Made by a program: the position numbers and the translations under genes. A stretch of DNA of 64,000 bases from an uncultured virus (IMG/VR IMGVR_UViG_3300035327_000120) (taxonomy: Duplodnaviria > Heunggongvirae > Uroviricota > Caudoviricetes), in IMG/VR virus record IMGVR_UViG_3300035327_000120. One strand, written 5' to 3'. Within the stretch, counting starts at the first letter, position 1. The number at the start of each line of letters is the position of its first letter. Positions 4,969 to 64,000 of the stretch are shown in pieces. Under the pieces are notes generated by a model. The model did no database searches and had not been told where the DNA came from. It saw only the letters and a program-made list of their open reading frames with translations.

Positions 4969-5647
4969 CTACTGACGGACACCACGAATTTGCGGTGCTG
5001 CTTCCGGGGTCGAATATGAGGCACTGCGAAACATAGTCTATGTGATCGCCAGCGGCCAACACGAGACGCTTGGCCTCATCTGGGAGCGACTGCATTTTTG
5101 GGATAATGTCAGCCGTGATATGGGCCGGCACTTGCTTGAACACCATTTTGCCGTTCTCGCCCCAGATTTCGCGGCGCACGGCATAGCCCTCTCGTATCAT
5201 AGGAAGCACTTGCTCAAAGGACAGCCCCCACGGGCGGCATTCTTCGCCTCCTTCCATGCAGGACTGACGCAGGCACAGCAGGGTCAGATATGCGCCCATC
5301 GTCTGATGCTGTGCCACGAGGAATGCGCGAGTGCCGAGAGGCATAGCCTGAAAGTCCTTGCCTTCATTGCGATTGTAGATGAAATCGCCGAGTTTGTTTG
5401 CGCGTGACATGACGTCTGCAATTTCGATGTTCACTCGGTCAAGTGGTGTTTCTGCAACCTTGTAGGCTGCCTCGAACACGTCGGCCGGCGACCATGATTT
5501 GTAGCCATCTGCGTATTCTACGAGATAACCGGGGCGTTCGTCGTATTCTTCGACGTAAGCGTTTTCACGGATAAGTCCTTCTTTGTAGGCCTGGCCATAG
5601 GTCATGGGAGCAGCCATAACTTGTTTAGTACCGATGTACTTTTTCAT
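4931..5647 (-). CDS. Multidomain protein with C-terminal DUF2829 / Tad2-like domain (possible anti-Thoeris/CBASS nucleotide sponge)
   Basis: C-terminal LSFEQVLPMIREGYAVRREIW...WCPSVDDLFAHDWQLV matches DUF2829 pattern; N-terminal KKYIGTKQV...GYKSWSPADVFEAAY phage domain. Confidence 0.65.
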   Translation of the reverse strand: MKKYIGTKQVMAAPMTYGQAYKEGLIRENAYVEEYDERPGYLVEYADGYKSWSPADVFEAAYKVAETPLDRVNIEIADVMSRANKLGDFIYNRNEGKDFQAMPLGTRAFLVAQHQTMGAYLTLLCLRQSCMEGGEECRPWGLSFEQVLPMIREGYAVRREIWGENGKMVFKQVPAHITADIIPKMQSLPDEAKRLVLAAGDHIDYVSQCLIFDPGSSTANSWCPSVDDLFAHDWQLVF

Positions 5648-5721
5648 GTTGTTACTGGTGGGTTTTACTAAGCCGCCCAAGGCTTTGTTTGTAATTTATG
5701 TCGTTTGCTTTATATACTCTC

Positions 5722-32500: not shown

Positions 32501-34722
32501 AATTCTTTTTGGGCGGCCTCGGTGAAGAACTTGGTAAATTCCAGAGTGAACTTGTAGTCGGTCGACGTCGCAGATGAGTTCTGATTGACATTCTCGCTCC
32601 ACAGCGTCAGGCCGGAGGTGGTATCAATTATTTCAAGGCGACGGATAACGCCAAGAACTTCCGTATCACCGTCGAATGTTACCGACTTGATAGCGGCCCG
32701 GACAGATATTTCAGAGCCATACGCAGCATAGACGGCAGGGCTTTCCAAGTAGATAGAAAGTGTCGAGCCGGCCACCTGACCTGCTCCGTTGCTCTTGGGG
32801 ATTGATACAGACTCACCGATTTTGGCACCGGCCTTATCTACACCTTGAATGACATAGTTATCGGGGTCAGGAACAATCTCCAGTCCTGCGAATTGCTTTT
32901 GCTCCAGTTCATACGCGCCCCCAGTGCTGAAAGCATCGTGGCCGCCGCGCTCTGGGGTGTCAGAGGTTTTGACAGAGCCACCACCGCCAAACTCTTTCCA
33001 AAGTTCTTTGCTCGCAAAATCCGTGGGCTGTCCTGTGAACTGATAAGCCTCCCACTTGTATTCTTCAGAACGGAAAGTAATCACAAGACCACCTTTGGCG
33101 TATGTGATGCCGGAGGACTGCTGTATCGAGAGGATAGCGTCAATGGCACTATCTTTCGTGTAGTAGCCTGATACGGTTCGGGGACAGAGGTTGTCAACAT
33201 TGATTATAGCCTCTGCGCCGGCGGACATTCCTGCAAGGTCTATCCAGTTCTTGGCGCTCTTGAACTGCGCCTCGGTTACGTTGGGGCCGACATACTGGTA
33301 AGTTTTCCACGAGCCGGCGCTTATGGCGAAAGTAATCTGCAAACCGAGCAATGCTTTGTCAGCGGCGAAAACAGCATCGAGAACATTGTGGGTTTGAGTT
33401 TCAGCCATGATATCGGAGTAATACTCTCCGGCAGGGAGGGGTATTTCGACAGTGGCGTTGAATGTATTGCCAACAGCGGCACCGCCTCCGCCAAACGGTT
33501 TCCATTGTTCAGGATTTTCCCAATCGGCATCTTCATCGAATACGTTCTTGACCCACTGATATGCGACCCATTTATATTTTTCTTCCCCGTTGGCATTGGT
33601 TTCAGCCATGAGGAATGTTACGACAGCGCCATAAATGCGGTAGCTATCATCAACCGAGCTTACAGCACTCTTGAGGGTATAGAATGGCTCATCAGTATCG
33701 TACAGCGCATTCAGGTTCAGGAACATCGTGGCCATAAGCTGGTGGCTATGGTCTGACAACCTGTTTCTGTTTTCTATGGCTTGGTCGTAGGCAGCTTTAC
33801 CTTTATCACCGGGATATGCTGTACCTGCGGTTTCGCCAAGAGCGAGGTCAGAGCCAATCGTTATCAGTTCCGACCCACTCCAACGAAATGTCTTGTTGTT
33901 TGAGGTACAAGTATAGATTTTGCCAGCATCGGGTATTCTACCGTCAATGTCTACACCTTCTCCGAATGACTCTGCATCGAGCCAGTTATTGTAATAGGTG
34001 AATACCTCGATCTTGATAGCAACTTCTCCTTTGTCAATATTCCAAAAATCATCTATTGGGATTGAAGGAGTAGCAGCCTCAATTTTGGGAGATATGGCGG
34101 TTACCCTCTTGGGACGTAAGACTGCATCCCAATCACCATTTTCAGAAACTTGTAGATTTGATACCGCCAACAGGAACCTGTTTGCTACGGTGTCATAAAC
34201 TACCATGCAGCCGCGATCGGTAGAGCTTTTGCCTATGGAAGCCCGTTGAGAGGTTACTCCGGATACCATAGCGTTAAACTCTATAACATCATCGACAAAG
34301 CCGGGGAGGTTCGCGGCAGGCACTTTCGCATTAGCATCAAGGGGAGCAATGCCGTTAGGCTGGCCGATTGAGTTGTGAGTGGCAACAGCCTGTGTCTTTG
34401 CCTCATCAGCCGTGGTCTGTGCCTTATCTGCGGCAGTCTTGGCAGTACCGGCCAAAGCAGCAGCATTAGCCGCAGCCGCCTTTGCTTCGTTTGCCGTGGT
34501 ATTGGCATTTCCGGCAATGATTGTAGTGCTGTTGAGCGTGGTCTGGAGAGCATTATCCTTACTCTCCCTCTGTTGGGCCTCCGTGGTCAGGGCGGAGTCA
34601 GTAGCCTCGATTATATCTACCAACATCTTACCGACACGTTCAGCCGTGTTCTGTCCCTCGCTGTCCTCATACCTGATAAGGTCAGCCTGAGATTTCAGGT
34701 TGGATTTATTCGTTAGTCCCAT
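26542..34722 (-). CDS. DGR target 1: 2726-aa putative tail/receptor-binding protein with C-terminal variable domain
   Basis: End of structural operon; LamG-like, LRR-like and beta-rich segments; VR1 at C-terminus ending GSRLAF. Confidence 0.85.
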   Translation of the reverse strand: MGLTNKSNLKSQADLIRYEDSEGQNTAERVGKMLVDIIEATDSALTTEAQQRESKDNALQTTLNSTTIIAGNANTTANEAKAAAANAAALAGTAKTAADKAQTTADEAKTQAVATHNSIGQPNGIAPLDANAKVPAANLPGFVDDVIEFNAMVSGVTSQRASIGKSSTDRGCMVVYDTVANRFLLAVSNLQVSENGDWDAVLRPKRVTAISPKIEAATPSIPIDDFWNIDKGEVAIKIEVFTYYNNWLDAESFGEGVDIDGRIPDAGKIYTCTSNNKTFRWSGSELITIGSDLALGETAGTAYPGDKGKAAYDQAIENRNRLSDHSHQLMATMFLNLNALYDTDEPFYTLKSAVSSVDDSYRIYGAVVTFLMAETNANGEEKYKWVAYQWVKNVFDEDADWENPEQWKPFGGGGAAVGNTFNATVEIPLPAGEYYSDIMAETQTHNVLDAVFAADKALLGLQITFAISAGSWKTYQYVGPNVTEAQFKSAKNWIDLAGMSAGAEAIINVDNLCPRTVSGYYTKDSAIDAILSIQQSSGITYAKGGLVITFRSEEYKWEAYQFTGQPTDFASKELWKEFGGGGSVKTSDTPERGGHDAFSTGGAYELEQKQFAGLEIVPDPDNYVIQGVDKAGAKIGESVSIPKSNGAGQVAGSTLSIYLESPAVYAAYGSEISVRAAIKSVTFDGDTEVLGVIRRLEIIDTTSGLTLWSENVNQNSSATSTDYKFTLEFTKFFTEAAQKEFTIVAYDADNNVKRRTITVTAVDVTCTSVQTLNYTSSSALEVGGDTKNILMYKFANNVSKQGVKVTTEIYLNGAWHTLGVATITDSYSHTISINPKNVLGGNEVMQHGSYPIRISGEDVASGVKGNTIYSSVMCVDPASTTPIVALRYNDTNNGSIRLYDSLVVEVAAYTPNKNSTKADVSIDGHVVTTVECQISQTYQVSKQIQGYDTDGSATIEFFVQSGASQTTPIQIRVYGSAIAAVLKEGALFGYDFATRSNSEPDHTITDKGATMIVEGSNWSSNGFGNYLGDNCLRIAENVTARIPYAPFGSAATERTNGMAWQMAFATNNIKDSEAKLVECYDPDSGAGFYICGNKVVMYCKNGTPSTVTRGFKCGEKITLAVVVEPSTITVHRGSTDYSTLKLYLNGEEVGAIGYVANSGAILNTRHISFNGTDGDLYLYYVLAYDSYYEWAQAFQNYLCKLTDTNAMTAEYEAENVLDNQNRPTLDLLKAKGIPYYVVVAPQATFDSFDSDINTSTNFKCTLFYFHPTMPWRSFKAENVRWRRQGTTSAKRPIKNDRFYLAKEKGWKITPIYPDYENADALMAYKLFELGYVRVEENTIPVKIITVKVDYSDSSNSNDCGVCDLMNATYRTLGASYMTPAQRAFDGTWKKGEVVVSGLEMNHSTANHPIAAFRATNESLTDAWFHAKGNWKEDKGEQVALGFMDTPGYNKGCLNYGDFIEFFGLPDETLDQTMARFKQSEGLDTTMPYLLSQYCGRDYRIMRYSGGEWARSTGSMKQINGKWVITGDVLNPVSGYELITYDGMDWFMGVGSVADMMAPTATMSSWVAKLNLGQETYPAWTQFFECMIDDDQLQIDLAMGRKVPYDLFNVLKFCDTCDYSKAALASTWQGIWKSNAWKYMSVQSLISYYTFTDYLAAVDQQAKNMQPMFFLEDGCWVENGEYHTPSAMEPVRMYFNKVYDCDTCNGKDNDGGNTIPSELDPATDDKCYAGRGSILWNDLRRCENQEMVCDASGNTLTLPGVVATMRNLPEIDGIGAGPFSPKGALHYFVNKRMKLWPKVVSSYDGERKYIHYTGYNDIYYYALQGLGLTSLPAFIEQRWRIRDGYYQTGDFKDASHVLGGRVGAKTGAVIRFKAAKSGYFGIGNDGGNITQGMYLQAGEEGVFTDFQHGDNILLYIYQADRMSEIDLSQLSLDPNFQFSVMTLAEKIVIGSVNHRTTWRLSPGNTGFLETMNLGDLPFLRHLDVRTTEIRSINASKCPRLETVLASGSDLTSITTAETSPLETLELPASMSELNFVNLPKLSYPGGLTIAGMSNVIRLMLSGCPHIDPMALINGIVTSSAIRYIRLPDVNITAPSSILAALRSSGAVGLDPSGQAYEESGQCSGITGRWIMENLIPENGADAVTIEKLKRYFPQLEIHNSQYTGVVFDDTESDSQNITNLENGTVGEEFEPSGHFVRVRDMSHAYKCTYNRTSQKMRCIQISDANYNLMADGTEYDPTDQAGEGFDIMKLLPAYWYKGVNDYKNQRKYFFVSSMAEEPISTVATNADGSYRRNRVKLADCLHTSMASVYTIVDDTAVKKGDDVTILENPNYSVYEINVEGMKQVRWPGLNNATIGAVFVDADGKIVAKFNMMVTHALFDFVNGEYVFCDVPSGSVKLLFTAPIGFDELEAIAVDSAAIEAIEPDWVHTRQRLVGVYGIHMDNLMRPRSISGSRTKCGDGTSTTNPDWQYDSEGRVKNTSVPTSTMHYTCQDFMNLCEMRGEGYHAIDYEISKDIANLVMALTGERDIQAYAGYGCGSQYTTGANNFNTFGNVTRKYSGSNIGNIIFGIQNFVACNYEWMSNIAANVTSYASFKKNKCIGQSSDPIDAVYHIYDPVSKTERAVQGLNNTSSGYCIGRVKFGRFCDTLASRVTSDSSQWNLHYGDGYYYTHDRGRVVGRAYGNAHAYGGLVFSVAYYVSSNSYTSCGSRLAFSGDIEIVEDTSETIETD
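26595..26711 (-). repeat. DGR variable region VR1
   Basis: Ungapped 117-bp match to TR 26315-26431; 17 mismatches, all at TR adenines. Confidence 0.95.
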
Positions 34723-43265: not shown

Positions 43266-44933
43266 TTATGCTACGTTTTCGCTGTCAGATTGGCGAGGGG
43301 CCTTTTCTGCCAATGCCTTTTCCAGTTCAGCAATTCGGGTTTCGTAATCACGGCATTTTGCCTCGTAGTCCTCGCAGAGTTGTCGGTCAATAGACTCAAC
43401 ATCTTCCTTGTTGCTGTTCTGGAGAGTGAGGTCGAGCAGGGAGGCAAAGGTCGTGGAGTAGCCGACACTTTTATCAGAGAGAAGCATTCTCATATACTCC
43501 CTGACAACGACATCCTTTTTGTCTGCCAGTTTCTCAATCAGAGTGCCGGCGCTCACCTCGATGTCTGCGTCCATGCCGAGGGTCTTGCGGAAATCGGCAG
43601 GGAGTCTGCTTGCAAGCAGGGCGATAAATACATTCTCTTCGGTGGCGTCAATCTTGCCGGCGCGCTGGGAGTATGGCGCATTTTCCATGAACGCACGCTG
43701 ACGTTCAACTCGCTCCATTTGCTTTTGCTCATCAATGGCCCGGAGTTCCATTTTAATTTGCGACAGCTTATGAACTTGGAGGTCATCTTCCATTTCCACG
43801 TTGCCGTTTTCGTCGGATTGGATATTGTAGAGGTACTTGACCTCGCCGGTGAGTATTCCTTTGTAGGCAATTTCATAGACCTTAATCACGAGGCCGGCGG
43901 CAATGTTCTCATCAAAGACGGAACGGACTCGCTCGTAGTTGGTGAGGCGCTTCTTGTATCGCTCCGGGTCAGAGAACGAGTCCTCCGAGGGAGCGACAGG
44001 CTCCACTAAATATTCACGCTTTCCGAGAGGTTGAGGATAGAGCAACATTGACTGCGCAGCCGAGGCAATCTCTTTGTTTTCGTCGGGAGTGCCAACATAG
44101 ACCAGTGGCAATCCGAGTTCTTTTGCTTGACGGAGAACAGCCTCGCGGTTCTTGGCTCTGAACAGCGCCACTTTCATGCACCGGGGATTGTCGGCGTCTT
44201 TGAAGCGGTTAGGATACTTGGCCGTATTGAACTTGCAGTTGGCACACGCCTTACAGGTTGTGAATGTTTCATCGGAGAGGTCGAAGCGGGCCGCAGAGAG
44301 CGCACCCATGACGTGTTCATCTATCCACTCGCGTAGCATTTCAAGTTTGAGAGTCTTGAACGTCCAACGCTCGATGTTGGCCGGTTGGAAGCACATTTGC
44401 ATCAACACCTGCTGCTGATCGTGAGTGAGCTTGCTTATCTCCAGTAGATGATTGAGGTTGAGAGTGCCGTCGCGCATGAGTTCTACAAATTCCGGCACGA
44501 TGTTGTTTAACTGTATGCGATTGGTTACGAAACTACCACTCTTGCCGAGCATTTTGGCAATTTCTTTGACTGACACCTTTGCTTCGGAGTAGAGGTATTT
44601 CAAAGCCGAGGCTTCTTCCATAGGGTCGATGTCTTTGCGTTGCAGGTTCTCGATTACCATACAGGCAAAAGCCTGTTTGTCGTCGAGTTCCTTGACAACA
44701 GCCTCGATAGTTTCACGGCCAAGAAGAACGTGAGCGCGGTAGCGGCATTCGCCACAGACAATCTCGTATTTTTCGCCGTTCTCACCCTTTTTCTTTCGGA
44801 GGGTGATAGCCTGAATAAGGCCGTTCTGCTCGATGCTTTGAGCCAGTTCCTTGATTGCGCCCTCATCAAAGGTCTTTCGGGGGTTTAGGGGACTTGTGGC
44901 AATTTCAGCCAACTTGATGTCTTTTACTTGCAT
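43266..44933 (-). CDS. ParB/RepB/Spo0J family protein
   Basis: NPRKTFDE...ELAQSI...GLIQAI...YEIVCGECRYRA...ENLQRKDIDPMEEA + HTH. Confidence 0.9.
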   Translation of the reverse strand: MQVKDIKLAEIATSPLNPRKTFDEGAIKELAQSIEQNGLIQAITLRKKKGENGEKYEIVCGECRYRAHVLLGRETIEAVVKELDDKQAFACMVIENLQRKDIDPMEEASALKYLYSEAKVSVKEIAKMLGKSGSFVTNRIQLNNIVPEFVELMRDGTLNLNHLLEISKLTHDQQQVLMQMCFQPANIERWTFKTLKLEMLREWIDEHVMGALSAARFDLSDETFTTCKACANCKFNTAKYPNRFKDADNPRCMKVALFRAKNREAVLRQAKELGLPLVYVGTPDENKEIASAAQSMLLYPQPLGKREYLVEPVAPSEDSFSDPERYKKRLTNYERVRSVFDENIAAGLVIKVYEIAYKGILTGEVKYLYNIQSDENGNVEMEDDLQVHKLSQIKMELRAIDEQKQMERVERQRAFMENAPYSQRAGKIDATEENVFIALLASRLPADFRKTLGMDADIEVSAGTLIEKLADKKDVVVREYMRMLLSDKSVGYSTTFASLLDLTLQNSNKEDVESIDRQLCEDYEAKCRDYETRIAELEKALAEKAPRQSDSENVA

Positions 44934-46461: not shown

Positions 46462-48267
46462 ATGTCAGTATATTCAAACGACACCGACCTCAAAGATTTA
46501 CTCTATCAAATAGAGAACGGCAAAATCCAACTCCCGGACTTTCAAAGAGATTGGGTTTGGGATGACGACAAAATCTGCAAGCTGATTGAGAGTATTGCTT
46601 CGGGATTTCCTATGGGAGCAGCCATGTTCCTTGAAACCGGCAATCCTGCCGTCAGGTTCACTCATAGAACCTTCACAGGAGCGCCGAAGCACTCAGATGT
46701 CAACCCTGACCGCCTTGTACTTGACGGACAGCAACGACTGACAACTCTATTCCAAGTATTCAAGGGTAAAGGTGCTACTATCGTCAACGGAGCAAAGAGT
46801 AAGGAAAGGCGGTACTACTATCTCGATATTCGTAAGGCCCTCAATCCACATGGGAGTATGCTTGAGGCCGTGGAGTCAATGCCGGAGAACAAAATCCGCA
46901 CAGCGAATATTGGCAGGGAGATAAAACTTGACCTTTCTACGAGGGAGGCCGAGTATGCCAATATGAAATTTCCTCTCAATCTGGTATTCTCACAGACTGA
47001 CATTATGGATTGGATTTTCGGTCTGATGTCGTATGATGCAGCTTCGGTGCAGATAGCAAAAGAGTTTTGCGACAAAGTTCTTAATGGTATCATTACTTAT
47101 AAAATCCCGGTCATTACCCTCACCAAAGACACAAGCAAAGAGGCGGTCTGCCAAATCTTTGAGAATGTCAATACTGGAGGGGTCAAACTGACCGTCTTTG
47201 AACTCATCACAGCGTCATTCGCAGCAGATGAATATGATATTCGCAAGGACTGGGACGCAATAGTCTCAAAGTTCACGAGCCATTGCGATATTCTCCGGGC
47301 AGTAGGAAGCACGAATTTCCTAACGGCTATGGCATTGTTGACCTCATACAAGCGTTTCTGTACTGCCACTGATACCTATGTGGTGTCATGCAAGAAGCGT
47401 GATGTTCTGAAGATGTCGTTGTCGGATTACAAAGAATGTCGGAGCGCATTAGTCAACGGCTTTCTCAAAGCGGCCGATTTCTTGGTTCATCAGGGAGTTT
47501 ATACTTGGCTCGATCTGCCATATTCCTCACAGCTCATTCCATTAGCAGCCATATTCGCCTATGCCGATGTTGCCGGAGTCAATCTATCTATTCAGACAAA
47601 CAAGGACATTCTTAGCCGGTGGTACTGGTGTGGAGTGTTCGGAGAGCAATACGGAGCCGCAAACGAAACGAGGTATGTTCTCGATATTGTAGGTGTGTTC
47701 CAGCAGATAGCCGACGGCACATTGCCTGATACGGTGGCAAGAGCCAATATGCAGCCAGCACGATTACTGACTATGCAAACTCGAAATAGCGCAGCCTACA
47801 AGGGCGTAATGGCGTTGATACTGCAAGACTCCCCACTCGATTTTATGAGTGGCAACAAAATGAACGTGGCTACTTATTTGGAAGAAAGCACGGATATTCA
47901 TCATATCTTTCCGCAGAACTATTGTGCTGCTCGATACGACTCTCTCAAATGGAACTCCGTTGTCAACAAGACTCCAATCTACGCCGGTACAAATCGGTCA
48001 ATCGGAGGACGCGCCCCCAGCGAGTATATCCGCACGATGTTCAACAAAGGATTGAGTGAGGCTCAAATCCGAGAGGCTATAACCTCTCACAAAATATCAT
48101 ACGACCTATTGGCCGCAGATGATTTCGAGGGGTTCATTGTTGACAGAGCAACCCGATTACTTGACCGCATAGAACTAGCAACAGGTAAATCTATCGCTGG
48201 CCGTGATAGCGAAGAAACCGTCAAGTTCTTCGGCAGACCATTAACACATCAAAGCGTAGACCTATGA
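46462..48267 (+). CDS. DUF262 + HNH (GmrSD-like) putative restriction/defence protein
   Basis: QLPDFQRDWVW, VLDGQQRLTTL, IFENVNTGG, DIHHIFPQ...N...N. Confidence 0.85.
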   Translation: MSVYSNDTDLKDLLYQIENGKIQLPDFQRDWVWDDDKICKLIESIASGFPMGAAMFLETGNPAVRFTHRTFTGAPKHSDVNPDRLVLDGQQRLTTLFQVFKGKGATIVNGAKSKERRYYYLDIRKALNPHGSMLEAVESMPENKIRTANIGREIKLDLSTREAEYANMKFPLNLVFSQTDIMDWIFGLMSYDAASVQIAKEFCDKVLNGIITYKIPVITLTKDTSKEAVCQIFENVNTGGVKLTVFELITASFAADEYDIRKDWDAIVSKFTSHCDILRAVGSTNFLTAMALLTSYKRFCTATDTYVVSCKKRDVLKMSLSDYKECRSALVNGFLKAADFLVHQGVYTWLDLPYSSQLIPLAAIFAYADVAGVNLSIQTNKDILSRWYWCGVFGEQYGAANETRYVLDIVGVFQQIADGTLPDTVARANMQPARLLTMQTRNSAAYKGVMALILQDSPLDFMSGNKMNVATYLEESTDIHHIFPQNYCAARYDSLKWNSVVNKTPIYAGTNRSIGGRAPSEYIRTMFNKGLSEAQIREAITSHKISYDLLAADDFEGFIVDRATRLLDRIELATGKSIAGRDSEETVKFFGRPLTHQSVDL

Positions 48268-57307: not shown

Positions 57308-58768
57308 TCAGTAGTTATCCTTTCTCTCGATACTGTATGTTGTCGGTTTGGCCGTGATTGGTGCCGGGCTGTCCTTCTGGAAAAATTCTACCATGCCGGT
57401 AAGAACATCAGGAGCATCATCGTGGCCATTGCGTCCAACTTTACGATAGCCCCGGACAGCATTGGCAAACTGCGGCCACCTCAACTCCCAGCCGACGGGG
57501 AAGAATATCAGATTTTGCACCTCGGCAGATCGGGTGAAAATCCTGACTTTCTTGTTGGCTCCCTGACGGAACGAAACAAATCTCATACCTCGTCCCACCG
57601 GACCGCCCAGCATTCTGACATTGCGCTCGACATTGCGAGCAAAGCCACGGCCGCCGTTGTTGCTCTCAATCTTCGCCATTTGGGTTTTATTCCTCATCAG
57701 CATTTCAGCAGTCTTAGGCTCCGTGTACTCCATAGGTTTGTCGGTGTAGAGAACATCAGTAACATACATACCTACCTTTGTTTCGATGTAGCAGACCGAA
57801 CACAAAAAGTCAGAGCCAGTATCCGCAGTATCGGTGTAGTTCTTTCGCAGGCCCGGTTCAAGCGGTAAAGCCTCGTATGTCCGCAGGGTGTTATACATCA
57901 GACCCTCAAGAGGCTTGGGGTTCTGCATATACTGGGTGTCGAATACAAACTGATTGGCCGCCTCAATCTTGCGCAGTTCCTCAACGGTATGCTTAAACTC
58001 CCATAGGGCGCGCTCGTTGCCGTCCCCATCAAGTTCCAAGCAGGGAATACTCAAAACCTCCCATTCGTCAGGCTCCAGTCCCATAAGATAGCCGCACAGG
58101 TCGCGCTCGTGGAGCCGTTGCATGATAATGATTATCGGGGTATTTCGGGAGTTGACACGGTTACGAATAGTTGTCTCAAAATGCTGATTGACCTGCTCAC
58201 GAGCATTGTCATTCAGAGCATTATCAGGCTTAATCGGGTCGTCTATCACAATGGCGCCCCCAAAGAGGGGATTTTCTTCATCTGCACTCTCGACAGCACC
58301 AGCACCAAAACCCGTAACCTGACCGAGAGAGGACGTGGCATAGACACCGCCACCGCTGTATGTGTCCCATCGGCTTTTCGTATCAGCACTGCGTCCAATC
58401 CTTATGTTGAACAGCCGTTGATACTCTGGAGAGGTAACGATATTCTTCACAGCAACGGAGTTGTCGAGAGCGAGGTTGCCGGAGTATGAGAGGTGGATAA
58501 ACTTTGCCGCCGGATTGAGCGCAAGCCCCATAGCAATGAAATTCTTGACCGCTATCTCTGTCTTTCCATAACGAGGAGCAATGTTAATCAGCAAACGCTT
58601 TATCTTGCCTTGCAGTACGAGGTTCAGTTTGTCGCAAATAAGTCGGTGATGTTTGCCTACGACGAAGCGTTTCCCGTTATTCAGGTGTTGGAAGAAAAAC
58701 CGGGAAAAATTCAGAGAGTCGCTGAGTAGCCATCTCCGCAATACTTCATCTGGAGCATATTCCATCAA
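57308..58768 (-). CDS. terL: Terminase large subunit
   Basis: NIAPRYGKT Walker A, IVIDDPIK, IMQRLHERDL, QYMQNP, HDDAPD nuclease motif. Confidence 0.95.
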   Translation of the reverse strand: MMEYAPDEVLRRWLLSDSLNFSRFFFQHLNNGKRFVVGKHHRLICDKLNLVLQGKIKRLLINIAPRYGKTEIAVKNFIAMGLALNPAAKFIHLSYSGNLALDNSVAVKNIVTSPEYQRLFNIRIGRSADTKSRWDTYSGGGVYATSSLGQVTGFGAGAVESADEENPLFGGAIVIDDPIKPDNALNDNAREQVNQHFETTIRNRVNSRNTPIIIIMQRLHERDLCGYLMGLEPDEWEVLSIPCLELDGDGNERALWEFKHTVEELRKIEAANQFVFDTQYMQNPKPLEGLMYNTLRTYEALPLEPGLRKNYTDTADTGSDFLCSVCYIETKVGMYVTDVLYTDKPMEYTEPKTAEMLMRNKTQMAKIESNNGGRGFARNVERNVRMLGGPVGRGMRFVSFRQGANKKVRIFTRSAEVQNLIFFPVGWELRWPQFANAVRGYRKVGRNGHDDAPDVLTGMVEFFQKDSPAPITAKPTTYSIERKDNY

Positions 58769-59217
58769 TACTTGTTTTCGAGGTCTTGAATGAAGTCCTG
58801 AGCCTCCTGTTGTGTCATAGGTTTAGCAGACTGCACTGTGGCCGTGATTTCCTGACCCTCAATATATCCTCGGCTCTTGCCTTTGGTTTTGAGGTGGAAT
58901 ATTATTGCCGTGAGGTTGCCGTCATTGATAGCCTCGGTCAGCTTAGACTCCGTAAAGTCCAGCAGGGCCTCATCTACATCTTTGAGCATTTCGTCAAGTT
59001 CAGGGTGGTTGCTCCGCCAGTAGTAGAGCGTCCGTCGAGCGATATTGAGCGCAGCAGCCGTGGCCGACATATTGCCGGCCTTCTTGGAGTAAACCTCGGC
59101 GATTTTAGCGTAGGAGAAAGGCAGCTTGTGTTCCTCCCCCTGCGGTGTTCTGGTGTCTTTGGTCGAGTCCATTTTTTTATGTGCAAACTGTGAACGATTT
59201 TTTCTTATCCTATGCAC
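58765..59217 (-). CDS. terS: Terminase small subunit
   Basis: HTH (ATAAALNIARRTLYYW), AIIFHLKTKGKSRGY; overlaps terL start. Confidence 0.8.
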   Translation of the reverse strand: MHRIRKNRSQFAHKKMDSTKDTRTPQGEEHKLPFSYAKIAEVYSKKAGNMSATAAALNIARRTLYYWRSNHPELDEMLKDVDEALLDFTESKLTEAINDGNLTAIIFHLKTKGKSRGYIEGQEITATVQSAKPMTQQEAQDFIQDLENKY

Positions 59218-59231
59218 AAGTTTTTAATTCT

Positions 59232-60455
59232 TCAAACTCCTGCAAAGGGTTTCAGATATGAGAACGGAGCCGTCAGTTCACCCTTGCGAATGAGCGTTGC
59301 CCTCTCGATTACTCGGTCGGGGTCAACGTTCATCAGAGCAGGGAAAACATGCTCCATTAACTTTTCTCCAAAGTTCGTCGACGCCTCTACCGGTATAGCG
59401 TTAGGCAGAGTGTCAACAGCCATTACGCCGACAGCAGAGCCGGACATAGCGTCCGTTTCCTCCCACTTGGCTCTGTCAATGCCGTAGAACGGATTGTCAT
59501 GCGTAGAGGGACGTACTGTCGTTTCCACGCTTCCGTTGATGTCGCAGGTAACGTCGCCTACCACATCTATTCTGGTAAAGCCGAGCATATCCATAGTGAG
59601 ATACTTTGGCTGTGCCGGCGCCCAAAAGTGGCAGGGGATAAAGATTGTCGTTTTTCCTGAGAACTTACCAAAGTCCGAGCAGTACATATCAGGGTGAGCT
59701 TTGAAGTGTTCTCTGTCGTACTGGTAGCCGTCCTTTCTCTTTACGAGGTCAGAGGTCTTGGCCACGGTGAAAATCGGGTTATCTATCATTTCTTCAGGCA
59801 TCGTGAGAAATTCTTCGACTGACACATATCTCACGCCGAGTTCATTCAGGATAAACTGAGCCCCGGCAGAAGCACGGCCATTTCCAGTAACGAGAATACG
59901 AATGTCATTGAAGCGGTCATGCTCCAGTTCAGAAATTATCGGCCGGCCGAGGTTCAGAATATCGGCCACCGTGAATTTCTTATCCGGAGCAGGGAGATTG
60001 AACAGGTCGTTACGCAGTCCATACAGTCGGAGCGAGTTATACACGCCCATGACTCCAGCCCAAAAACTGAAAGACACAAGGCGCTTGCCCTCTCTGGTCA
60101 GATACTCGTAGTCGGTCAGGGTGATGTTTTTCTCAATCATCGCCCGGCAGAGATTTTGATTGTACGGTTGCATCTTTCCTATATGGGCGAAGAAGAAATA
60201 ATGTTTGTCCGGGATAAGGCTCTTTATGCTGACTTCCTTAACTCCGAAAAGCCAATCACAAGAAGCCATATCCTCTGAAAGAACTGCGCCGGCTTTAATG
60301 TATTCCTCATTCGGAAAAATTCGCAGACAGGAGGGTTGAACATATATCTCAAGGCCCGGATAGGTCGATAGCAATTTCTTGCACTGCGCCGGGGTTATCG
60401 GAGTGCGATTGTCAACAGGGATTTTCGTTTCCCTTAGAATACCTATGCGTTTCAT
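59232..60455 (-). CDS. Saccharopine dehydrogenase / lysine-ketoglutarate reductase-like enzyme (AlaDh/PNT superfamily)
   Basis: IGILRETK...R.P.TP, GVKEV, FFAH..K.QPYN, DYEYL, TGNGRASAGA, DVTCDINGS, MAVDTLP. Confidence 0.85.
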   Translation of the reverse strand: MKRIGILRETKIPVDNRTPITPAQCKKLLSTYPGLEIYVQPSCLRIFPNEEYIKAGAVLSEDMASCDWLFGVKEVSIKSLIPDKHYFFFAHIGKMQPYNQNLCRAMIEKNITLTDYEYLTREGKRLVSFSFWAGVMGVYNSLRLYGLRNDLFNLPAPDKKFTVADILNLGRPIISELEHDRFNDIRILVTGNGRASAGAQFILNELGVRYVSVEEFLTMPEEMIDNPIFTVAKTSDLVKRKDGYQYDREHFKAHPDMYCSDFGKFSGKTTIFIPCHFWAPAQPKYLTMDMLGFTRIDVVGDVTCDINGSVETTVRPSTHDNPFYGIDRAKWEETDAMSGSAVGVMAVDTLPNAIPVEASTNFGEKLMEHVFPALMNVDPDRVIERATLIRKGELTAPFSYLKPFAGV

Positions 60456-61150
60456 TCTGTCACCTCACTTTCCATTTGCTTTTTGGCGAGTTCCAAGATT
60501 TTGCAGAACGCCATGTTGCTTGACTTGATTTCGTATTTCTTGCGGATCTGCCCGATAAGCTGGAGGTAGAAATCCTCATTTTCATCACCGTCAACGACCA
60601 TTACGATGTCATTCTTGCCGTTCTGCTCGTTGATTATACCGACCAGTTCATCAAGCAGCTCCATGTCTTTGTGATAGAATACCACGCAGCATGAATAATG
60701 CTCGCTGGCCACGGAGAAACTTACCCCCTCCGTGGTGATAGGCTCCAGTTCGTCGATGTTGACATGGGCAAAACTCTTGAAATCCACACTCTGAATTTCT
60801 GCAAACATTCTTTTCAGAATGCCTTTGTCATCTTCACCGTGAAGCGAGTTGTGAGAGAGTTGCAGAGCCACAATCTCGTCCGGGGTCATGTCAGCCTCAT
60901 CAGCGTAGATAACAGGTACCTCCCTGTACCGTAGTTTTACTGCGGCCCTATATCGGTGGTGGCCGGAGATAATAACATATCTCCCAGTATCGGTCTTTCG
61001 GTAACAGCCTATGGCGCTGCTTAACCCTCCAGAGATACGAATGTTCTCCACGAGCCTGTTGAAATCATGCTCGGACATCTGATTTGCATTGACACTCGCC
61101 TCATCTATAAGGCTTATGTCAATAGAGGCTTGTTTCCATTTATTACTCAT
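60452..61150 (-). CDS. ParB/Srx N-terminal domain protein
   Basis: NANQM...LVENIR...YVIISGHHRYRAA...LSHNSLHGEDD. Confidence 0.8.
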   Translation of the reverse strand: MSNKWKQASIDISLIDEASVNANQMSEHDFNRLVENIRISGGLSSAIGCYRKTDTGRYVIISGHHRYRAAVKLRYREVPVIYADEADMTPDEIVALQLSHNSLHGEDDKGILKRMFAEIQSVDFKSFAHVNIDELEPITTEGVSFSVASEHYSCCVVFYHKDMELLDELVGIINEQNGKNDIVMVVDGDENEDFYLQLIGQIRKKYEIKSSNMAFCKILELAKKQMESEVTE

Positions 61151-63165
61151 TTCTTACGGCTTATAAACTGTTTGTACTTGGCGATAATATCAGTAAACTC
61201 TCCCTCGGTGCCGAGTTCACAAGTGTAGACTAAATGGTTTTTCTCCTGCGAAACTTTCTTGAATAGGCCACGGTACTTCATTGATACCGGATTGTGAGTG
61301 TAGACTTTCGTTTCACAAGTTACAAAGTCATCGAGGGTGCGCCGGGACAGGAATTTCTTCACCCAGCGAGATTTTACGCAGAGCAATATCAACTTGCTCA
61401 ATCTCGGTATGGCATTATTGGTGCAGAAATCAGTTACCAGCGAAATATCGTAGTCTTGCTTACTGAACTTGAAGCCGAAAGCCCCAAGCAGATAATCCTC
61501 ATAGAACACGAGGAACGGAAAGGTTACTTTCGATACAATCTGTACCTTCTTGACATAATGCTTTTGCAACTGGAACACCACGTTTGCCGCGACGTGCCGG
61601 ATTTTCAGTTTGGCAGGGTCGTCAATTACCAAATCATCTGGCGGCTCCTTGAAAGAGGGCATCTTCAACTTGACGGCCTTATACGTTACTGCGGCTTCCT
61701 TTTTGCGTGAACAATAGAAAATTTTGTCGCCGACCGAGGCTATCTTCTGGAGGTGTTCATGGTAGGGGAAAGTGCTTACTAAGAACAGAGTCGTATTCTC
61801 CGGCAGAGTTTCCACGAGGTTCAGATACTCGGTTGAGTGAATTTCAAAACTCTCATTGTAATCGCTATGCTTGCGCAGGGCGCTTACTGCGGTTCTGCTT
61901 TTGCCGTAGTCATCAAAGTTAAAGAACACATCGCTGCCAACTTTTACAGCGTCATTGATAGTTCCAAGCCGGTAGTCGCAGTTGGTAAGGAACTCCACCA
62001 TGCGTGTAGCCGCTTTGGTCGCATTTTGTATGGTGGTAGGCATTGCCGCCTGAATAGCCTCAAAACTCTTCTTGTAAAAGTCGGCCGATTTCAGATAGCG
62101 GCATATCTTCTTGAATACGATTAGGCAGGCGACCTGCTTAACTGGGTCGTCGCCGTTCAAATCTTCGAGGAACTGGAACGTGCTGTCATACTTGATGCGC
62201 AGACCCTCCCGGACAATCGCATACAAGATATGGTTAAACTCGTCGTTATTAAACACTATGAGTTTTTTCAACTTGCTCAATCGTACCTCGGTGGAGAATG
62301 AATAGGGATTTACGCACACAAGCTGATCGCCAGTGTTCTTCACTAAGACATTCAGCATGGATTTAGTCAAGTCCACCGCCGAGTGTGCCGTGGCACCGAC
62401 GTCCATTTCTCTAATCGAAGAAAAGAATATCAGGGAGGGAGGCAACGCAGGAAGAGCCGAGGGTAACTTTATGGTCGATACCATTTGCTCTACCGTCTTT
62501 ATGGCCCGAAAGTCATCTTCATTATGTTTCAGGGCATAATCTACATACCGATAGGCGAACATTATGCAGTTCATTATCTCCTGAAAATCGGTGGTGGTAT
62601 TGAACAGGCGAAACTCTACCGTGCCTCTCACAAAGTAGGAAGCAATATTGACAAAGTGCCGGACATAGCCCTTGTTGTGGCTGTTCTCAAAGGCTCGTTG
62701 CAGTTCAGAGAATGATTGAGCCTTTTGCACTCTCTCGTAAAATTCCAGAGTTGGAGAGGGCCGGTATCTCTGCTCATCGCTGTACGGCGGCAAATGGCAG
62801 AGGTCTTTCAGGAGGTCGGTCGCATGGTAGGTCAGATAGTAGATGTTCTTCAGTTCATCGAGCGTTAAGTCGCCCACGAATATATGAACCTGAACGCCGC
62901 AGTCGCGTCGGGCTACCGCGCCATTTTCAGCGCAGCTTTCGACTACCTTACGGAAGGTGTCGAGGTCTTTATGGCATAGGTGCATGGGAGGCGTATTTAT
63001 CTCGCCTCCGTATCTGGCCGATATAGTACCGCGTGTGCCGTCCGTGTTGTGGATTACCTCTTCCTCGTCCCAAGTGTAGTCAGAGGGAAAGTATATCTTT
63101 CTCTTCTCCACGTTGGCAAGCTCCAGTTCTATGCCAAATGTTCTTTCTGTGATGCGTAGTTCCAT
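61147..63165 (-). CDS. Fusion: N-terminal amidoligase (COOH-NH2 ligase type 2) + C-terminal Mom-like GNAT domain
   Basis: RTFGIELE...DG...EINTPP...CGVQVHI...GTVEFRLF (amidoligase); C-terminal KHY...FLVFYEDYLLGAFGF...IPRLSKLIL...PVSMKYRG; likely ATG 63165 (672 aa). The Mom-like call is by-eye. Confidence 0.65.
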   Translation of the reverse strand: MELRITERTFGIELELANVEKRKIYFPSDYTWDEEEVIHNTDGTRGTISARYGGEINTPPMHLCHKDLDTFRKVVESCAENGAVARRDCGVQVHIFVGDLTLDELKNIYYLTYHATDLLKDLCHLPPYSDEQRYRPSPTLEFYERVQKAQSFSELQRAFENSHNKGYVRHFVNIASYFVRGTVEFRLFNTTTDFQEIMNCIMFAYRYVDYALKHNEDDFRAIKTVEQMVSTIKLPSALPALPPSLIFFSSIREMDVGATAHSAVDLTKSMLNVLVKNTGDQLVCVNPYSFSTEVRLSKLKKLIVFNNDEFNHILYAIVREGLRIKYDSTFQFLEDLNGDDPVKQVACLIVFKKICRYLKSADFYKKSFEAIQAAMPTTIQNATKAATRMVEFLTNCDYRLGTINDAVKVGSDVFFNFDDYGKSRTAVSALRKHSDYNESFEIHSTEYLNLVETLPENTTLFLVSTFPYHEHLQKIASVGDKIFYCSRKKEAAVTYKAVKLKMPSFKEPPDDLVIDDPAKLKIRHVAANVVFQLQKHYVKKVQIVSKVTFPFLVFYEDYLLGAFGFKFSKQDYDISLVTDFCTNNAIPRLSKLILLCVKSRWVKKFLSRRTLDDFVTCETKVYTHNPVSMKYRGLFKKVSQEKNHLVYTCELGTEGEFTDIIAKYKQFISRKK

Positions 63166-63177
63166 GCAAATAATGAT

Positions 63178-63252
63178 TGGAGCGAGAGCAGGGACTCGAA
63201 CCCCGGACTCCGGCATGGTTAGCCGGCGCATTAGCCACTGTGCTACTCTCGC
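63178..63252 (-). tRNA. Atypical tRNA-Gly-like gene, anticodon ACC, encoded CCA
   Basis: GCGAGAG/CTCTCGC acceptor stem, U73, CCA, D-loop GG, CCGGC/GCCGG anticodon stem with loop TAACCAT, TTCGAGT T-loop, 4-nt variable loop. Confidence 0.85.
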
Positions 63253-63291
63253 ATATTGGCGTGAGGGCTATTCAACTCTCACGCCGTATGT

Positions 63292-63711
63292 TCAGAGGTC
63301 ATCAAACAATGAGGGCGGCTCAATCTTCTCTGGCTTCTTGGGAGCAGGAGGAGTTGACACAAATTCTTTTATCTCTACCCCTGTCTGCTGTGTAAGATAT
63401 TGAGCAAGCAGGTGCCTGTGGCAAAAGTCATCGGGCTTTTCATAGCAACATAAGGCCACATCAGAGCCGCCGCAGGTTCTCTCCAGTCTCTCTATAAACT
63501 CGTATGGGTCGAGCCGGGAGAGGATTTGCCGATATGCGTCAAGGTATTGCTGGTGTGATGCCTTTTTTACCATCCACGGTGTAGGCGCCACATCAGACAT
63601 CACTACTGGCACGGAAAGGAAGCGAGGCTGCCAACAGGCAATGCTCACAATCTTTATGCCCTCCTTTGCCAACGCTTTCGCATTGCCGAAATATGAAGTG
63701 TAGATTTTCAT
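63292..63711 (-). CDS. DUF488-like protein
   Basis: MKIYTSYF...VALCCYEKPDDFCHRHLLA. Confidence 0.7.
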   Translation of the reverse strand: MKIYTSYFGNAKALAKEGIKIVSIACWQPRFLSVPVVMSDVAPTPWMVKKASHQQYLDAYRQILSRLDPYEFIERLERTCGGSDVALCCYEKPDDFCHRHLLAQYLTQQTGVEIKEFVSTPPAPKKPEKIEPPSLFDDL

Positions 63712-63977
63712 GCTGATTTCTTTTTCGGGTTGATGTATTCCACGACGTCGAGGTGAAAGAGGGTCATGACTTTTTCTATGTTCCTGATCGGCATATTTCT
63801 GTATCCGTTGAAGAAAGCAGTCAGGCAGGTATTGTCGATATCGGTTTTCTCCGCAACCTCTTTCACTTTCATTCCAGATACAGCAAAATGCGATTTGAGA
63901 ATTTCAGGCAGTTCCGAGGGAGGCAGAGCAGCACGGCCGGCGGTTTTTAAGCCGATAGACAATCCCAGTTCTTCCAT
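63708..63977 (-). CDS. XRE-type HTH protein
   Basis: VKEVAEKTDIDNTCLTAFFNG. Confidence 0.65.
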   Translation of the reverse strand: MEELGLSIGLKTAGRAALPPSELPEILKSHFAVSGMKVKEVAEKTDIDNTCLTAFFNGYRNMPIRNIEKVMTLFHLDVVEYINPKKKSA

Positions 63978-64000
63978 TGCTTTGACAAACTTGGGATATG

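What the first reader, a model, noticed from the sequence alone, without database searches (positions are those of the whole stretch)
59232..63977. Candidate tRNA-dependent DNA hypermodification operon: dedicated tRNA-Gly + amidoligase/Mom-like GNAT fusion + ParB + saccharopine-dehydrogenase-like enzyme, next to terminase
Seen: gene order HTH - DUF488-like - tRNA-Gly - 672-aa fusion - ParB-like - dehydrogenase - terS - terL. ATGA overlaps at 63708/63711, 61147/61150 and 60452/60455, and only 12 nt between the tRNA CCA and the fusion's ATG, point to one operon. The fusion's C-terminus (KHY...FLVFYEDYLLGAFGF...DISLVTDF...IPRLSKLIL) resembles phage Mu Mom by eye. Established: phage DNA-modification genes often cluster with ParB-like genes near terminases; Mom is a GNAT-fold adenine-modifying enzyme, and as I recall it has been reported to use Gly-tRNA(Gly) as donor. 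Inference: the phage encodes its own glycyl-donor tRNA, and the amidoligase (amide formation) and dehydrogenase (reductive amine/2-oxoacid condensation) extend the adduct into a larger base modification for anti-restriction. I do not know of this combination being described.
Basis: partly seen in the sequence, partly recalled or inferred. Interest (0 to 1): 0.9.

Follow-up and report, generated by a model that had tools for sequence, protein, structure and literature searches.

The report
Phage DNA-modification operon with own glycine tRNA
A gut-bacterium prophage carries, just before its DNA-packaging genes, an enzyme set built around a relative-by-shape of phage Mu's Mom enzyme together with its own glycine tRNA that looks made to be charged but not to translate, which suggests a new, more elaborate way of decorating viral DNA with an amino acid.

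Summary
In detail: HTH, DUF488-N3a, tRNA-Gly(ACC), a 672-aa Amidoligase_2/DAM-like/GNAT-phage-like fusion, ParB-like, a lysine-ketoglutarate-reductase-like dehydrogenase, terS and terL lie on one strand, with the stated ATGA overlaps and the 12-nt gap. The GNAT domain is not a Mom-family member by sequence, but Mu Mom (8BV8) is its best structural match. Mom is published as Gly-tRNAGly-dependent. New here: a Gly-type tRNA sits upstream on the same strand in 27 of 41 homologue clusters, in cultured Mycobacterium and Gordonia phages, and as 67-nt mini-tRNAs in Deltaproteobacteria. These RNAs keep the GlyRS determinants and covary in their stems. However, 35 of 51 depart from decoding tRNAs (non-U33, six-base loops, TGC T-loops), as does the window's A33/A34 copy. 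Two unrelated opine-type dehydrogenases alternate between loci. Best reading (about 0.55): a dedicated glycyl-donor tRNA feeds a Mom-like transfer to phage DNA, and the adduct is then extended. Chemistry, target base and anti-restriction role are inferred. The scan noted related cassettes before on other DNA. I class it as a new variant of a known kind.

The parts
63708..64000 (-). Cro/C1-type HTH gene, first gene of the co-oriented block. The ATG at 63977 gives 89 aa; the frame is open to the window end.
   Evidence: ORF list. HTH_3 is weak on the 89-aa form (E 0.007) but reaches 8e-8 on the 183-aa ORF of the identical contig L001. Its stop overlaps the DUF488 start (ATGA).
63292..63711 (-). 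DUF488-N3a protein (139 aa), a conserved core partner of unknown activity. It has an invariant C..E.P..FCHR motif after a beta-strand.
63178..63252 (-). tRNA-Gly-like gene with encoded CCA and anticodon loop UAACCAU (A33, A34-C35-C36). It carries G1-C72, C2-G71, G3-C70 and U73.
   Evidence: ARAGORN, Rfam 51.3 bits, sequence, family alignment A3 and covariation.
61147..63165 (-). 672-aa three-domain enzyme: Amidoligase_2 (nt 62551-63018), DAM-like-phage2 (nt 61936-62361) and GNAT-phage-like (nt 61207-61611).
   Evidence: Pfam and phrog_2443 at 2.3e-69. Of 39 database homologues, 37 carry all three domains. The GNAT model has pLDDT 92.4 and Mu Mom 8BV8 is the top structural match.
60452..61150 (-). 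ParB/Srx-fold protein (232 aa), always directly downstream of the GNAT gene.
   Evidence: ParB_N 30.6 bits, phrog_7405 at 1.5e-55, and weak similarity to the SerK serine kinase at 4.9e-7. Present in 89 of 89 full-length loci and 53 of 58 other loci.
59232..60455 (-). NAD(P)-dependent dehydrogenase of the lysine-ketoglutarate reductase / saccharopine dehydrogenase type, a variable accessory gene.
   Evidence: AlaDh_PNT_N 72 bits. Best solved relatives are the AASS LKR domain (9.5e-39) and saccharopine dehydrogenase (3e-14). Found in 11 of 41 clusters and never together with the Octopine_DH or ATP-grasp genes of other loci.
57308..59217 (-). Terminase small (58765-59217) and large (57308-58768) subunits, the downstream context of the module.
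   Evidence: phrog_309 and phrog_38 at 7e-86. terS follows the module in 88 of 89 loci.

Best explanation
This is a late-operon DNA-hypermodification module of a Muribaculaceae prophage. Its core is a GNAT acyltransferase served by its own glycine tRNA. Proposed path, with the basis for each step: (1) The phage tRNA is cut out of the DUF488-tRNA-fusion transcript and charged by the host glycyl-tRNA synthetase. This is inferred from the intact identity set. (2) The tRNA's anticodon loop (A33, A34) and, in relatives, its T loop depart from what ribosome and EF-Tu need, so it serves as a private glycyl carrier rather than a decoder. This is inferred, by analogy with the non-proteogenic tRNAGly of Staphylococcus. 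(3) The C-terminal GNAT domain transfers glycine from this tRNA to an exocyclic amine of a base in phage DNA, probably adenine N6. This is inferred from the Mom-like fold and the fused Dam-like domain. (4) The ParB-like protein brings the enzyme to DNA at or before packaging. This is inferred from synteny with terminase. (5) The amidoligase domain and the opine-type dehydrogenase build on the glycyl amine by ATP-dependent amide formation and by reductive condensation with a 2-oxo acid. The product would be larger than Mu's carbamoylmethyl-adenine (speculative). Shown here: the parts, their conservation, the selection pattern on the tRNA and the fold. Not shown: any chemistry.
For: The tRNA is linked to the GNAT gene. 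In 89 full-length loci grouped into 41 clusters at 90% identity, 27 clusters have a Gly-type tRNA upstream, 13 have none and 1 is mixed. All 150 matches of the tRNA model R1 lie on the GNAT gene's strand. The tRNA lies 10-125 nt before the fusion, or about 0.9-1.7 kb before it where one gene intervenes.

The same linkage occurs with the shorter DAM-like+GNAT protein. It is seen in Mycobacterium phage Jeon, whose one annotated tRNA is a tRNA-Gly directly upstream of gp68. It is also seen in Gordonia phage Clawz, Streptomyces prophages, Planctomycetota, and as 67-nt mini-tRNAs directly after DUF488 in Deltaproteobacteria.

The selection pattern fits a charged but non-decoding tRNA. Across 51 distinct sequences, 95.5% of cells pair, 16 of 21 pairs show compensatory change and the covariation score is 0.734 against 0.207 in shuffles (0 of 500 reach it). 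Acceptor pairs 1-3 and U73 never vary, C35 is invariant and C36 nearly so. These are the GlyRS determinants listed in PMC7826273 (passage read).

Yet 35 of 51 depart from elongator norms: 12 lack U33, 10 have six-base loops, 2 have a pyrimidine at 37, 2 have non-Gly anticodons and 17 have TGC or TTT in the T loop. A further 10 have A34. By contrast, 28 of 28 host tRNAs examined are canonical, and the host already has GCC, UCC and CCC isoacceptors. TGC in the T loop is also the mark of the staphylococcal non-proteogenic tRNAGly (PMC7826273).

The accessory genes converge on one chemistry. LKR-like (11 clusters) and Octopine_DH (16 clusters) dehydrogenases are mutually exclusive and unrelated, but both families make opines from an amine and a 2-oxo acid.
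Against: There is no detectable sequence relation to the Mom family. Mom's lead over other GNATs is under 1 Z unit, which the tool counts as a tie. Mom's essential HTH-like insertion between the last two strands is absent from the model.

Thirteen of 41 clusters and most distant loci have no detectable tRNA, so the enzyme does not need a private one. In L037, L043, L063 and L065 the neighbouring tRNAs found are Met, Lys and others, not Gly. Fifteen of 51 Gly-type tRNAs look fully canonical.

The invariance of G1-C2-G3 and U73 is partly by selection, because I kept sequences starting GCG with a T discriminator. However, every ARAGORN Gly or two-base-anticodon call passed that filter.

'Dam-like' rests on the Pfam name only: comparison with E. 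coli Dam gave nothing. The 91 Mom loci examined have no tRNA, but all are close Mu relatives. No data bear on the DNA itself.
Confidence: 0.55

Rival explanations
1. The module modifies DNA, but the GNAT uses an acyl-CoA as most GNATs do. On this view the tRNA is an ordinary phage translational tRNA, or a decaying one, that sits in the phage's usual tRNA slot between early and late genes.
For: Several loci hold small tRNA arrays at this spot, including Cys, Phe, Lys, Asn and Met. Thirteen of 41 clusters lack a Gly tRNA. Fifteen of 51 Gly tRNAs are canonical. An earlier comparative-genomics paper described Mom-type GNATs as acyl-CoA users (PMC7824862, passages read). Top fold matches other than Mom are CoA enzymes.
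Against: The slot is kept across phyla and across two protein architectures, and Gly is the type in 51 of 74 distinct tRNAs. Compensatory changes with fixed GlyRS determinants argue against decay. Loss of U33, six-base loops and drifting wobble bases argue against decoding. The host has all three isoacceptors.
Confidence: 0.15
2. The tRNA is a counter-defence device: a spare or decoy tRNAGly that resists host toxins aimed at tRNAGly. DUF488 would be a phosphatase-like repair enzyme, and the GNAT might itself act on tRNA rather than on DNA.
Against: This does not explain the fusion to Dam-like and amidoligase domains, the obligatory ParB partner or the position before terminase. A decoy for anticodon nucleases would keep the anticodon loop, which is what varies here. 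The DUF488 fold matches are below the level the tool calls meaningful.
Confidence: 0.12
3. The enzymes make or modify something other than DNA, for example a glycyl-containing opine-like small molecule or a modified virion or packaging protein. They would use Gly-tRNA as Fem-type or natural-product GNATs do.
For: Amidoligase, ATP-grasp and opine dehydrogenases are typical of small-molecule and peptide pathways. tRNA-dependent GNATs act on peptides, lipids and natural products (PMC13219725, figure legend read).
Against: The Dam-like domain, the ParB partner and the fixed place in a ParB-terminase locus point to DNA. An earlier paper describes such loci as predicted to modify phage DNA at packaging (PMC4738411, passages read). 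Mom is the best fold match.
Confidence: 0.1

Closest known systems
Phage Mu Mom (Pfam PF25680; PDB 8BV8), the Gly-tRNAGly-dependent N6-adenine DNA modifier (Silva et al. 2026, PMC13219725)
   Same: GNAT fold, with Mom as the best structural match. It is a phage late function, and a glycine tRNA is implicated as co-substrate.
   Different: No sequence relation and no HTH-like insertion. Here the GNAT is fused to Dam-like and amidoligase domains, is always paired with ParB and DUF488, and often has its own tRNA. Mu and 91 Mu-like loci encode no tRNA. That paper's text has no mention of amidoligase, ParB or fusion.
Non-proteogenic tRNAGly isoacceptors feeding FmhB/FemA/FemB in Staphylococcus aureus (Rietmeyer et al., PMC7826273)
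   Same: Dedicated Gly-tRNAs keep the GlyRS determinants but depart from translation norms, including TGC in the T loop.
   Different: Those are chromosomal and serve cell-wall synthesis through Fem-type transferases. Here they are phage-encoded, sit next to a single-domain GNAT, and go much further in losing the anticodon loop, down to 67-nt mini-tRNAs.
ParB-terminase (ParB-Tls) DNA-modification loci of phages (Iyer et al. 2013, as cited in PMC4738411)
   Same: Modification enzymes lie between a ParB-like gene and the terminase and are predicted to act on DNA at packaging (passage read).
   Different: The passages I could read concern methylases. The 2013 paper itself is not held, so I cannot say whether it describes this GNAT/amidoligase cassette. 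I recall no mention of a tRNA.
Post-replicative thymidine hypermodification clusters (Lee et al. 2021, PMC8989533)
   Same: Multi-enzyme decoration of phage DNA that uses glycine. Amidoligase genes are noted as unexplained neighbours (passages read).
   Different: Those start from 5-hmdU made by a dUMP hydroxymethylase and use free glycine on a phosphorylated base. No such enzyme was found in this window.

Membership tests
Mom family (PF25680) | Match to the family's sequence profile | tested here: not met
   Mu Mom hits PF25680 at 2.4e-75. The window's domain hits only PF22559 at max E 10. hhalign of A2 against a 26-member Mom alignment gives probability 0.7%.
Mom family (PF25680) | GNAT fold closest to Mom | tested here: met
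Mom family (PF25680) | HTH-like insertion between the last two strands, essential in Mom (PMC13219725) | tested here: not met
   In the model, strands 158-163 and 168-173 are joined by a four-residue turn.
Mom family (PF25680) | Catalytic residues R111, S124, D149, R151 | tested here: inconclusive
   No residue-level structural alignment was available. A non-significant hhalign pairing puts Mom S124 on the conserved Ser of the PRLSK motif. The family's own invariant residues are D579 and P626-G633, the PVSMKYRG motif.
Mom family (PF25680) | Use of Gly-tRNAGly and dsDNA as substrates | not testable with these tools
   Biochemistry is needed.
GNAT superfamily | GNAT fold | tested here: met
Bacterial tRNAGly chargeable by GlyRS | Cloverleaf, plus G1-C72, C2-G71, U73, C35 and C36 (PMC7826273) | tested here: met
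   Rfam 51.3 bits. All determinants are present in the window copy and fixed across 51 relatives.
Canonical decoding (elongator) tRNA | Seven-base anticodon loop with U33 and purine 37 (recalled rule) | tested here: not met
   The window loop is UAACCAU with A33. Of 51 relatives, 23 have a non-canonical loop, against 0 of 28 host tRNAs.
Amidoligase_2 (PF12224) | Profile match above the cut-off | tested here: met
   78 bits against a cut-off of 22, residues 50-205.
Dam-type adenine methyltransferase | Similarity to Dam, a SAM-binding glycine loop and the DPPY motif | tested here: inconclusive
   Pfam DAM-like-phage2 scores 49.8 bits. hhalign and BLASTP against E. coli Dam gave nothing significant. 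No glycine-rich or DPPY motif is conserved in A1; the conserved motifs are VNP, NNDE, GTLNDA and SDY. The domain was not folded.
Saccharopine dehydrogenase / lysine-ketoglutarate reductase | Sequence similarity to solved members | tested here: met
   AASS LKR domain at 9.5e-39 and yeast-type saccharopine dehydrogenase at 3e-14. The substrate is unknown.
ParB/Srx fold | ParB_N profile match | tested here: met
   30.6 bits against a cut-off of 26.3. No HTH_ParB domain, unlike the phage's second ParB at 43266-44933.

The most novel reading that the evidence does not exclude
A widespread class of phage-encoded, non-decoding glycine tRNAs acts as a private aminoacyl cofactor for a Mom-like GNAT. 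These RNAs range from near-normal tRNAs to 67-nt mini-tRNAs without a normal D arm, and they co-evolve with the GNAT across at least five bacterial phyla. On this reading the tRNA insulates DNA glycylation from translation. In the Bacteroidota versions the glycyl-adenine is then captured before Mom-type rearrangement and built up by the amidoligase, ATP-grasp and opine dehydrogenases into a peptide- or opine-like DNA base not yet described.
Probability: 0.35. Interest if true: 0.92.

Novelty: new variant of a known kind. Interest (0 to 1): 0.8.

Why it matters
tRNA-dependent DNA modification has a single worked example, Mu Mom, which borrows host tRNA. A second, unrelated-in-sequence GNAT family would change that picture. 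It has 1057 cluster representatives at E<=0.001 among 1.84 billion proteins, and it repeatedly keeps its own glycine tRNA. That would show the chemistry is widespread. It would also give the first case of a virus encoding an RNA cofactor for DNA modification, and it would explain some 'odd' phage tRNAs that gene finders flag as undetermined. The variable amidoligase, ATP-grasp and opine-dehydrogenase genes promise new DNA adducts, which are of interest for restriction evasion, for reading gut phage-host conflicts and as enzymatic tools for labelling DNA. Cultured carriers on laboratory hosts make the idea directly testable.

Tried and rejected
Searches against solved structures by sequence found nothing. 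A1 had 0 hits and A2 had one spurious hit at E 1.4.

Comparisons with the Mom family were not significant: hhalign of A2 against Mu Mom and against a Mom family alignment.

Comparisons of A1 and of the Streptomyces homologue with E. coli Dam were not significant. My motif mapping onto Dam from memory is therefore left out.

tRNA-dependent GNATs such as FemX or L/F-transferase do not appear in the top-50 fold lists. Absence from a list shows nothing.

The sigma-70 promoter and terminator scan was at background, 9 against 6.2 and 6 against 4.8, and is unsuited to Bacteroidota.

A loose acceptor-stem motif scan had a high background: 126 hits on the + strand, 22 on the - strand and 30 in shuffled sequence. 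I dropped it in favour of the covariance model.

The control on Mom loci found 0 tRNAs in 91 loci, but all are Mu-like at 66-100% identity, so it says little about distant Mom homologues.

Contigs from RNA libraries of three studies tile the operon at low depth. One ends at 63252, the tRNA 5' end, and one at 63183, near its 3' end. Contigs cannot show RNA ends, and RNA libraries can hold DNA, so this is not counted.

Literature. Iyer et al. 2013 (NAR 41:7635) is not held. No held paper contains the Pfam names GNAT-phage-like, PF22559, DAM-like-phage1, PF22555 or DUF488-N3a. No paper holds amidoligase, GNAT, ParB, DNA modification and phage together. Two searches failed on term syntax.

The window's own genome is not held. 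The near-identical G001 was used for host tRNAs.

Full report
WHAT IS THERE

On the - strand of window 57308-64000 lies one co-oriented, tightly packed block:
- an HTH gene at 63708-63977, whose frame is open to the window end;
- a DUF488-N3a gene at 63292-63711;
- a tRNA-Gly at 63178-63252;
- a 672-aa gene at 61147-63165;
- a ParB-like gene at 60452-61150;
- an AlaDh/PNT-type dehydrogenase at 59232-60455;
- terS at 58765-59217 and terL at 57308-58768.

Twelve bases separate the encoded CCA from the ATG. Pfam splits the large protein into Amidoligase_2 (residues 50-205), DAM-like-phage2 (269-410) and GNAT-phage-like (519-653), each above its curated cut-off. PHROGs knows the whole architecture as phrog_2443.

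The tRNA is the only one in the 64 kb. The window is a prophage. It has an integrase at 115-1389. Near-identical DNA lies inside long contigs of Muribaculaceae genomes (L072 at 98%, L073 at 94%) and in a 44-kb IMG/VR contig (L001). It also occurs in mouse and rat gut metagenomes of several studies.

IS THE GNAT MOM-LIKE?

Silva et al. (Nat Commun 2026, PMC13219725; I read the abstract, the discussion and searched passages) show that Mu Mom transfers glycine from Gly-tRNAGly to N6 of adenine in dsDNA. The glycyl-dA then rearranges to carbamoylmethyl-dA.

By sequence the window's domain is not a Mom-family member:
- Mom is PF25680, while this domain hits only PF22559.
- Profiles of 58 GNAT-domain sequences (A2) find nothing in the PDB by sequence.
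- A2 does not match Mu Mom or a 26-member Mom alignment.

By fold the picture differs. The domain model (pLDDT 92.4) is a GNAT, and 8BV8 is its best match in three searches:
- Foldseek rank 3 with the highest query TM-score.

The margin is under one Z unit, so this is a lead and not proof. Mom's essential HTH-like insertion is missing from the model. DNA contact would then have to come from the fused Dam-like domain or from ParB.

THE tRNA IS LINKED TO THE GNAT GENE

I collected 147 loci. For viral contigs, 551 of 599 pattern matches encoded relatives, and the best 80 gave 71 loci. For genome contigs, 279 of 315 did, and the best 80 gave 76 loci.

Eighty-nine loci hold a full-length fusion. 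Of these, 87 have DUF488, 89 have ParB, 88 have terS, and 87 have the order DUF488 - fusion - ParB. ARAGORN made 137 tRNA calls over the window and the 147 loci. These reduce to 74 distinct sequences, of which 51 are Gly-type.

A covariance model built from the 51 (R1) found further copies that ARAGORN missed, in L074, L079 and L031. All 150 of its matches lie on the GNAT gene's strand.

Grouped at 90% identity of the fusion protein, 27 of 41 clusters have a Gly-type tRNA upstream, 13 have none and 1 is mixed. The negative list was entered by hand, and three negatives have under 1.8 kb of upstream sequence.

The linkage is not tied to the amidoligase. The shorter DAM-like-phage1 + GNAT protein of actinobacterial phages shows it too:
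- Mycobacterium phage Jeon has one annotated tRNA, a tRNA-Gly(tcc) that abuts gp68 (Pfam of gp68).
- Gordonia phage Clawz has an unannotated R1 match 107 nt before gp29.
- Two Streptomyces prophages and an Anaerolineae locus carry tRNA-Gly upstream.

In Deltaproteobacteria a 67-nt element follows DUF488 directly. It has a Gly acceptor stem, U73, an encoded CCA, a T arm, a stub in place of the D arm and an ACC-bearing hairpin. It was found in L094, L095, L099, L103, L105, L106 and L116, with a related form in L145.

Among the 54 distant loci L094-L147, 15 showed a Gly-acceptor element by my reading. Many of these loci lack upstream sequence.

THE tRNA LOOKS CHARGEABLE BUT NOT BUILT TO DECODE

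In the alignment of 51 distinct sequences, G1, C2, G3, their partners and U73 are invariant. C35 is invariant and C36 nearly so. PMC7826273 lists G1-C72, C2-G71 (printed as G70), U73, C35 and C36 as the determinants for glycylation (passage read).

The rest of the molecule evolves under structural constraint. 95.5% of cells pair, 16 of 21 pairs show changes on both sides, and the covariation score is 0.734 against 0.207 in shuffles, with 0 of 500 shuffles reaching it. Slid registers give 0.09-0.20.

One caveat applies. I kept sequences that begin GCG and have a T discriminator, so part of the invariance is by selection. However, every ARAGORN 'Gly' or two-base-anticodon call passed that filter, and only two others (Arg-TCT and Arg-ACG, each a point variant of a sister Gly tRNA) were added by it.

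Against this conservation, the parts that matter to the ribosome drift:
- 12 lack U33, including the window's UAACCAU.
- 10 have six-base loops.
- 2 have a pyrimidine at position 37.
- 2 have non-Gly anticodons.
- The wobble base is U in 21, A in 10, C in 9 and G in 1.
- 14 have TGC and 3 have TTT in place of TTC in the T loop.
- In all, 35 of 51 show at least one departure, not counting A34. Fifteen look canonical.

All 28 distinct tRNAs examined from the near-identical host genome G001 are canonical. That genome already has GCC, UCC and CCC glycine tRNAs. TGC or TGT in the T loop is the feature reported for the 'non-proteogenic' tRNAGly that feed the Fem transferases in S. aureus (PMC7826273). 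That U33 is near-universal, and that A34 is rare outside tRNAArg(ACG), is recalled knowledge and not tested here.

THE ACCESSORY ENZYMES

The window's dehydrogenase is closest to the lysine-ketoglutarate reductase domain of AASS (9.5e-39) and to saccharopine dehydrogenase (3e-14). In other loci its place is taken by an Octopine_DH-family gene before the fusion and an ATP-grasp (D-Ala-D-Ala-ligase-like) gene after ParB.

Across the 41 clusters the split is: Octopine_DH + ATP-grasp 16, LKR-like 11, ATP-grasp alone 8, none 6. The LKR-like gene never co-occurs with either of the others, in 0 of 89 loci.

Two unrelated dehydrogenase families whose known members condense an amine with a 2-oxo acid (established enzymology of saccharopine and opine dehydrogenases) alternate in one slot. 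This is the best hint that a free amine, such as that of a glycyl adduct, is a pathway intermediate. It remains an inference.

The amidoligase domain keeps a set of invariant acidic, His and Arg residues, so it is probably active.

RIVAL READINGS

An ordinary tRNA island, a counter-defence tRNAGly or a non-DNA product cannot be excluded. They are weighed in their own sections. Four observations count most against the main reading:
- There is no sequence link to Mom.
- Mom's structural lead over other GNATs is thin.
- A third of clusters have no tRNA.
- Four loci (L037, L043, L063, L065) have a Met(CAT) tRNA and other tRNAs, but no Gly type, at this place.

WHAT IS KNOWN, AND NOVELTY

tRNA-dependent DNA glycylation is known (Mom). 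ParB-terminase loci with modification enzymes are known as a concept (PMC4738411, citing Iyer et al. 2013, which I could not read). Pfam has models for these very domains.

I found no held paper that names those models. None combines amidoligase, GNAT, ParB and phage DNA modification. The Mom paper does not mention amidoligase, ParB, fusions or phage tRNA genes.

This scan has met related material before on other DNA. Note e1-5913973 describes a phage GNAT-ParB cassette, and note e1-5912687 describes an odd phage tRNA-Gly with a Mom-like GNAT 8 kb away. What is added here is direct adjacency, its conservation across phyla, and the selection pattern on the tRNA. I class the finding as a new variant of a known kind, with interest 0.8.

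Noticed in passing
window 46462-48267 (+): A GmrSD_N-type (type IV, modification-dependent) restriction enzyme gene lies on the opposite strand inside the prophage (2.1e-33). A phage that modifies its own DNA may use it against rival modified phages.
   Followed up: no
window 4931-5680 (-): The protein combines a Thoeris anti-defence Tad2-like domain with a crAss001_48-related domain.
   Followed up: no
window 24507-26120 and 26542-34722 (-): A weak reverse-transcriptase match (RVT_1, 1.6e-5, below cut-off) sits next to a 2726-aa ORF with no Pfam match. This may be a diversity-generating retroelement beside a giant tail or injected protein.
   Followed up: no
window 43266-44933 (-): A second, canonical ParB (ParB_N + HTH_ParB, 555 aa) is present in the same prophage. 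It is distinct from the short ParB of the module.
   Followed up: no
L043 4885-4959, L045 4587-4662, L050 4723-4794, L057 4737-4811, L063 4500-4572, L065 2736-2808: A second family of tRNA-like genes has a shared ..GCAGT/ACTGC.. acceptor stem, no U33, and anticodons that differ from locus to locus (GTT, GAT, CCT, GCT). It lies just upstream of the Gly- or Met-type tRNA. Its identity is unknown.
   Followed up: partly
L043 5045-5118, L063 4659-4731, L065 2816-2889, L037 4798-4873: In loci without a Gly-type tRNA, a tRNA-Met(CAT) occupies the place next to the Octopine_DH gene. Three of the four copies have an initiator-like C1-A72 end. Whether these GNATs use another aminoacyl donor is open.
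   Followed up: no
L094, L095, L099, L103, L105, L106, L116 (for example L106 5128-5197): These are 67-nt mini-tRNAs: a Gly acceptor stem, U73-CCA, a T arm, a 4-bp stub in place of the D arm, and a 7-bp hairpin with an ACC loop. They lie directly after DUF488 in deltaproteobacterial GNAT-ParB loci, and ARAGORN missed them.
   Followed up: partly
G001 (host-like genome), locus among L148-L177: The near-identical host genome also carries a phage-type tRNA-Gly(UCC) identical to that of L007 and L008. This suggests a second prophage with a 42%-identical cassette in the same cell.
   Followed up: no
window 63166-63231 (-): An in-frame upstream ATG gives a 694-aa form that overlaps the tRNA. A database cluster of 192 members is recorded at that length (P0001), probably a mis-called start.
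   Followed up: partly
L001 1524-3636: Upstream of the module lie DpnD/PcfM-, PcfK- and PcfJ-like genes, which are typical of conjugative elements.
   Followed up: no
L179 2925-3353 (Mycobacterium phage Jeon gp65): This gene is annotated 'virion structural protein' but weakly matches DUF488-N3a (E 0.0023, below cut-off). It is two genes before the tRNA-Gly.
   Followed up: no
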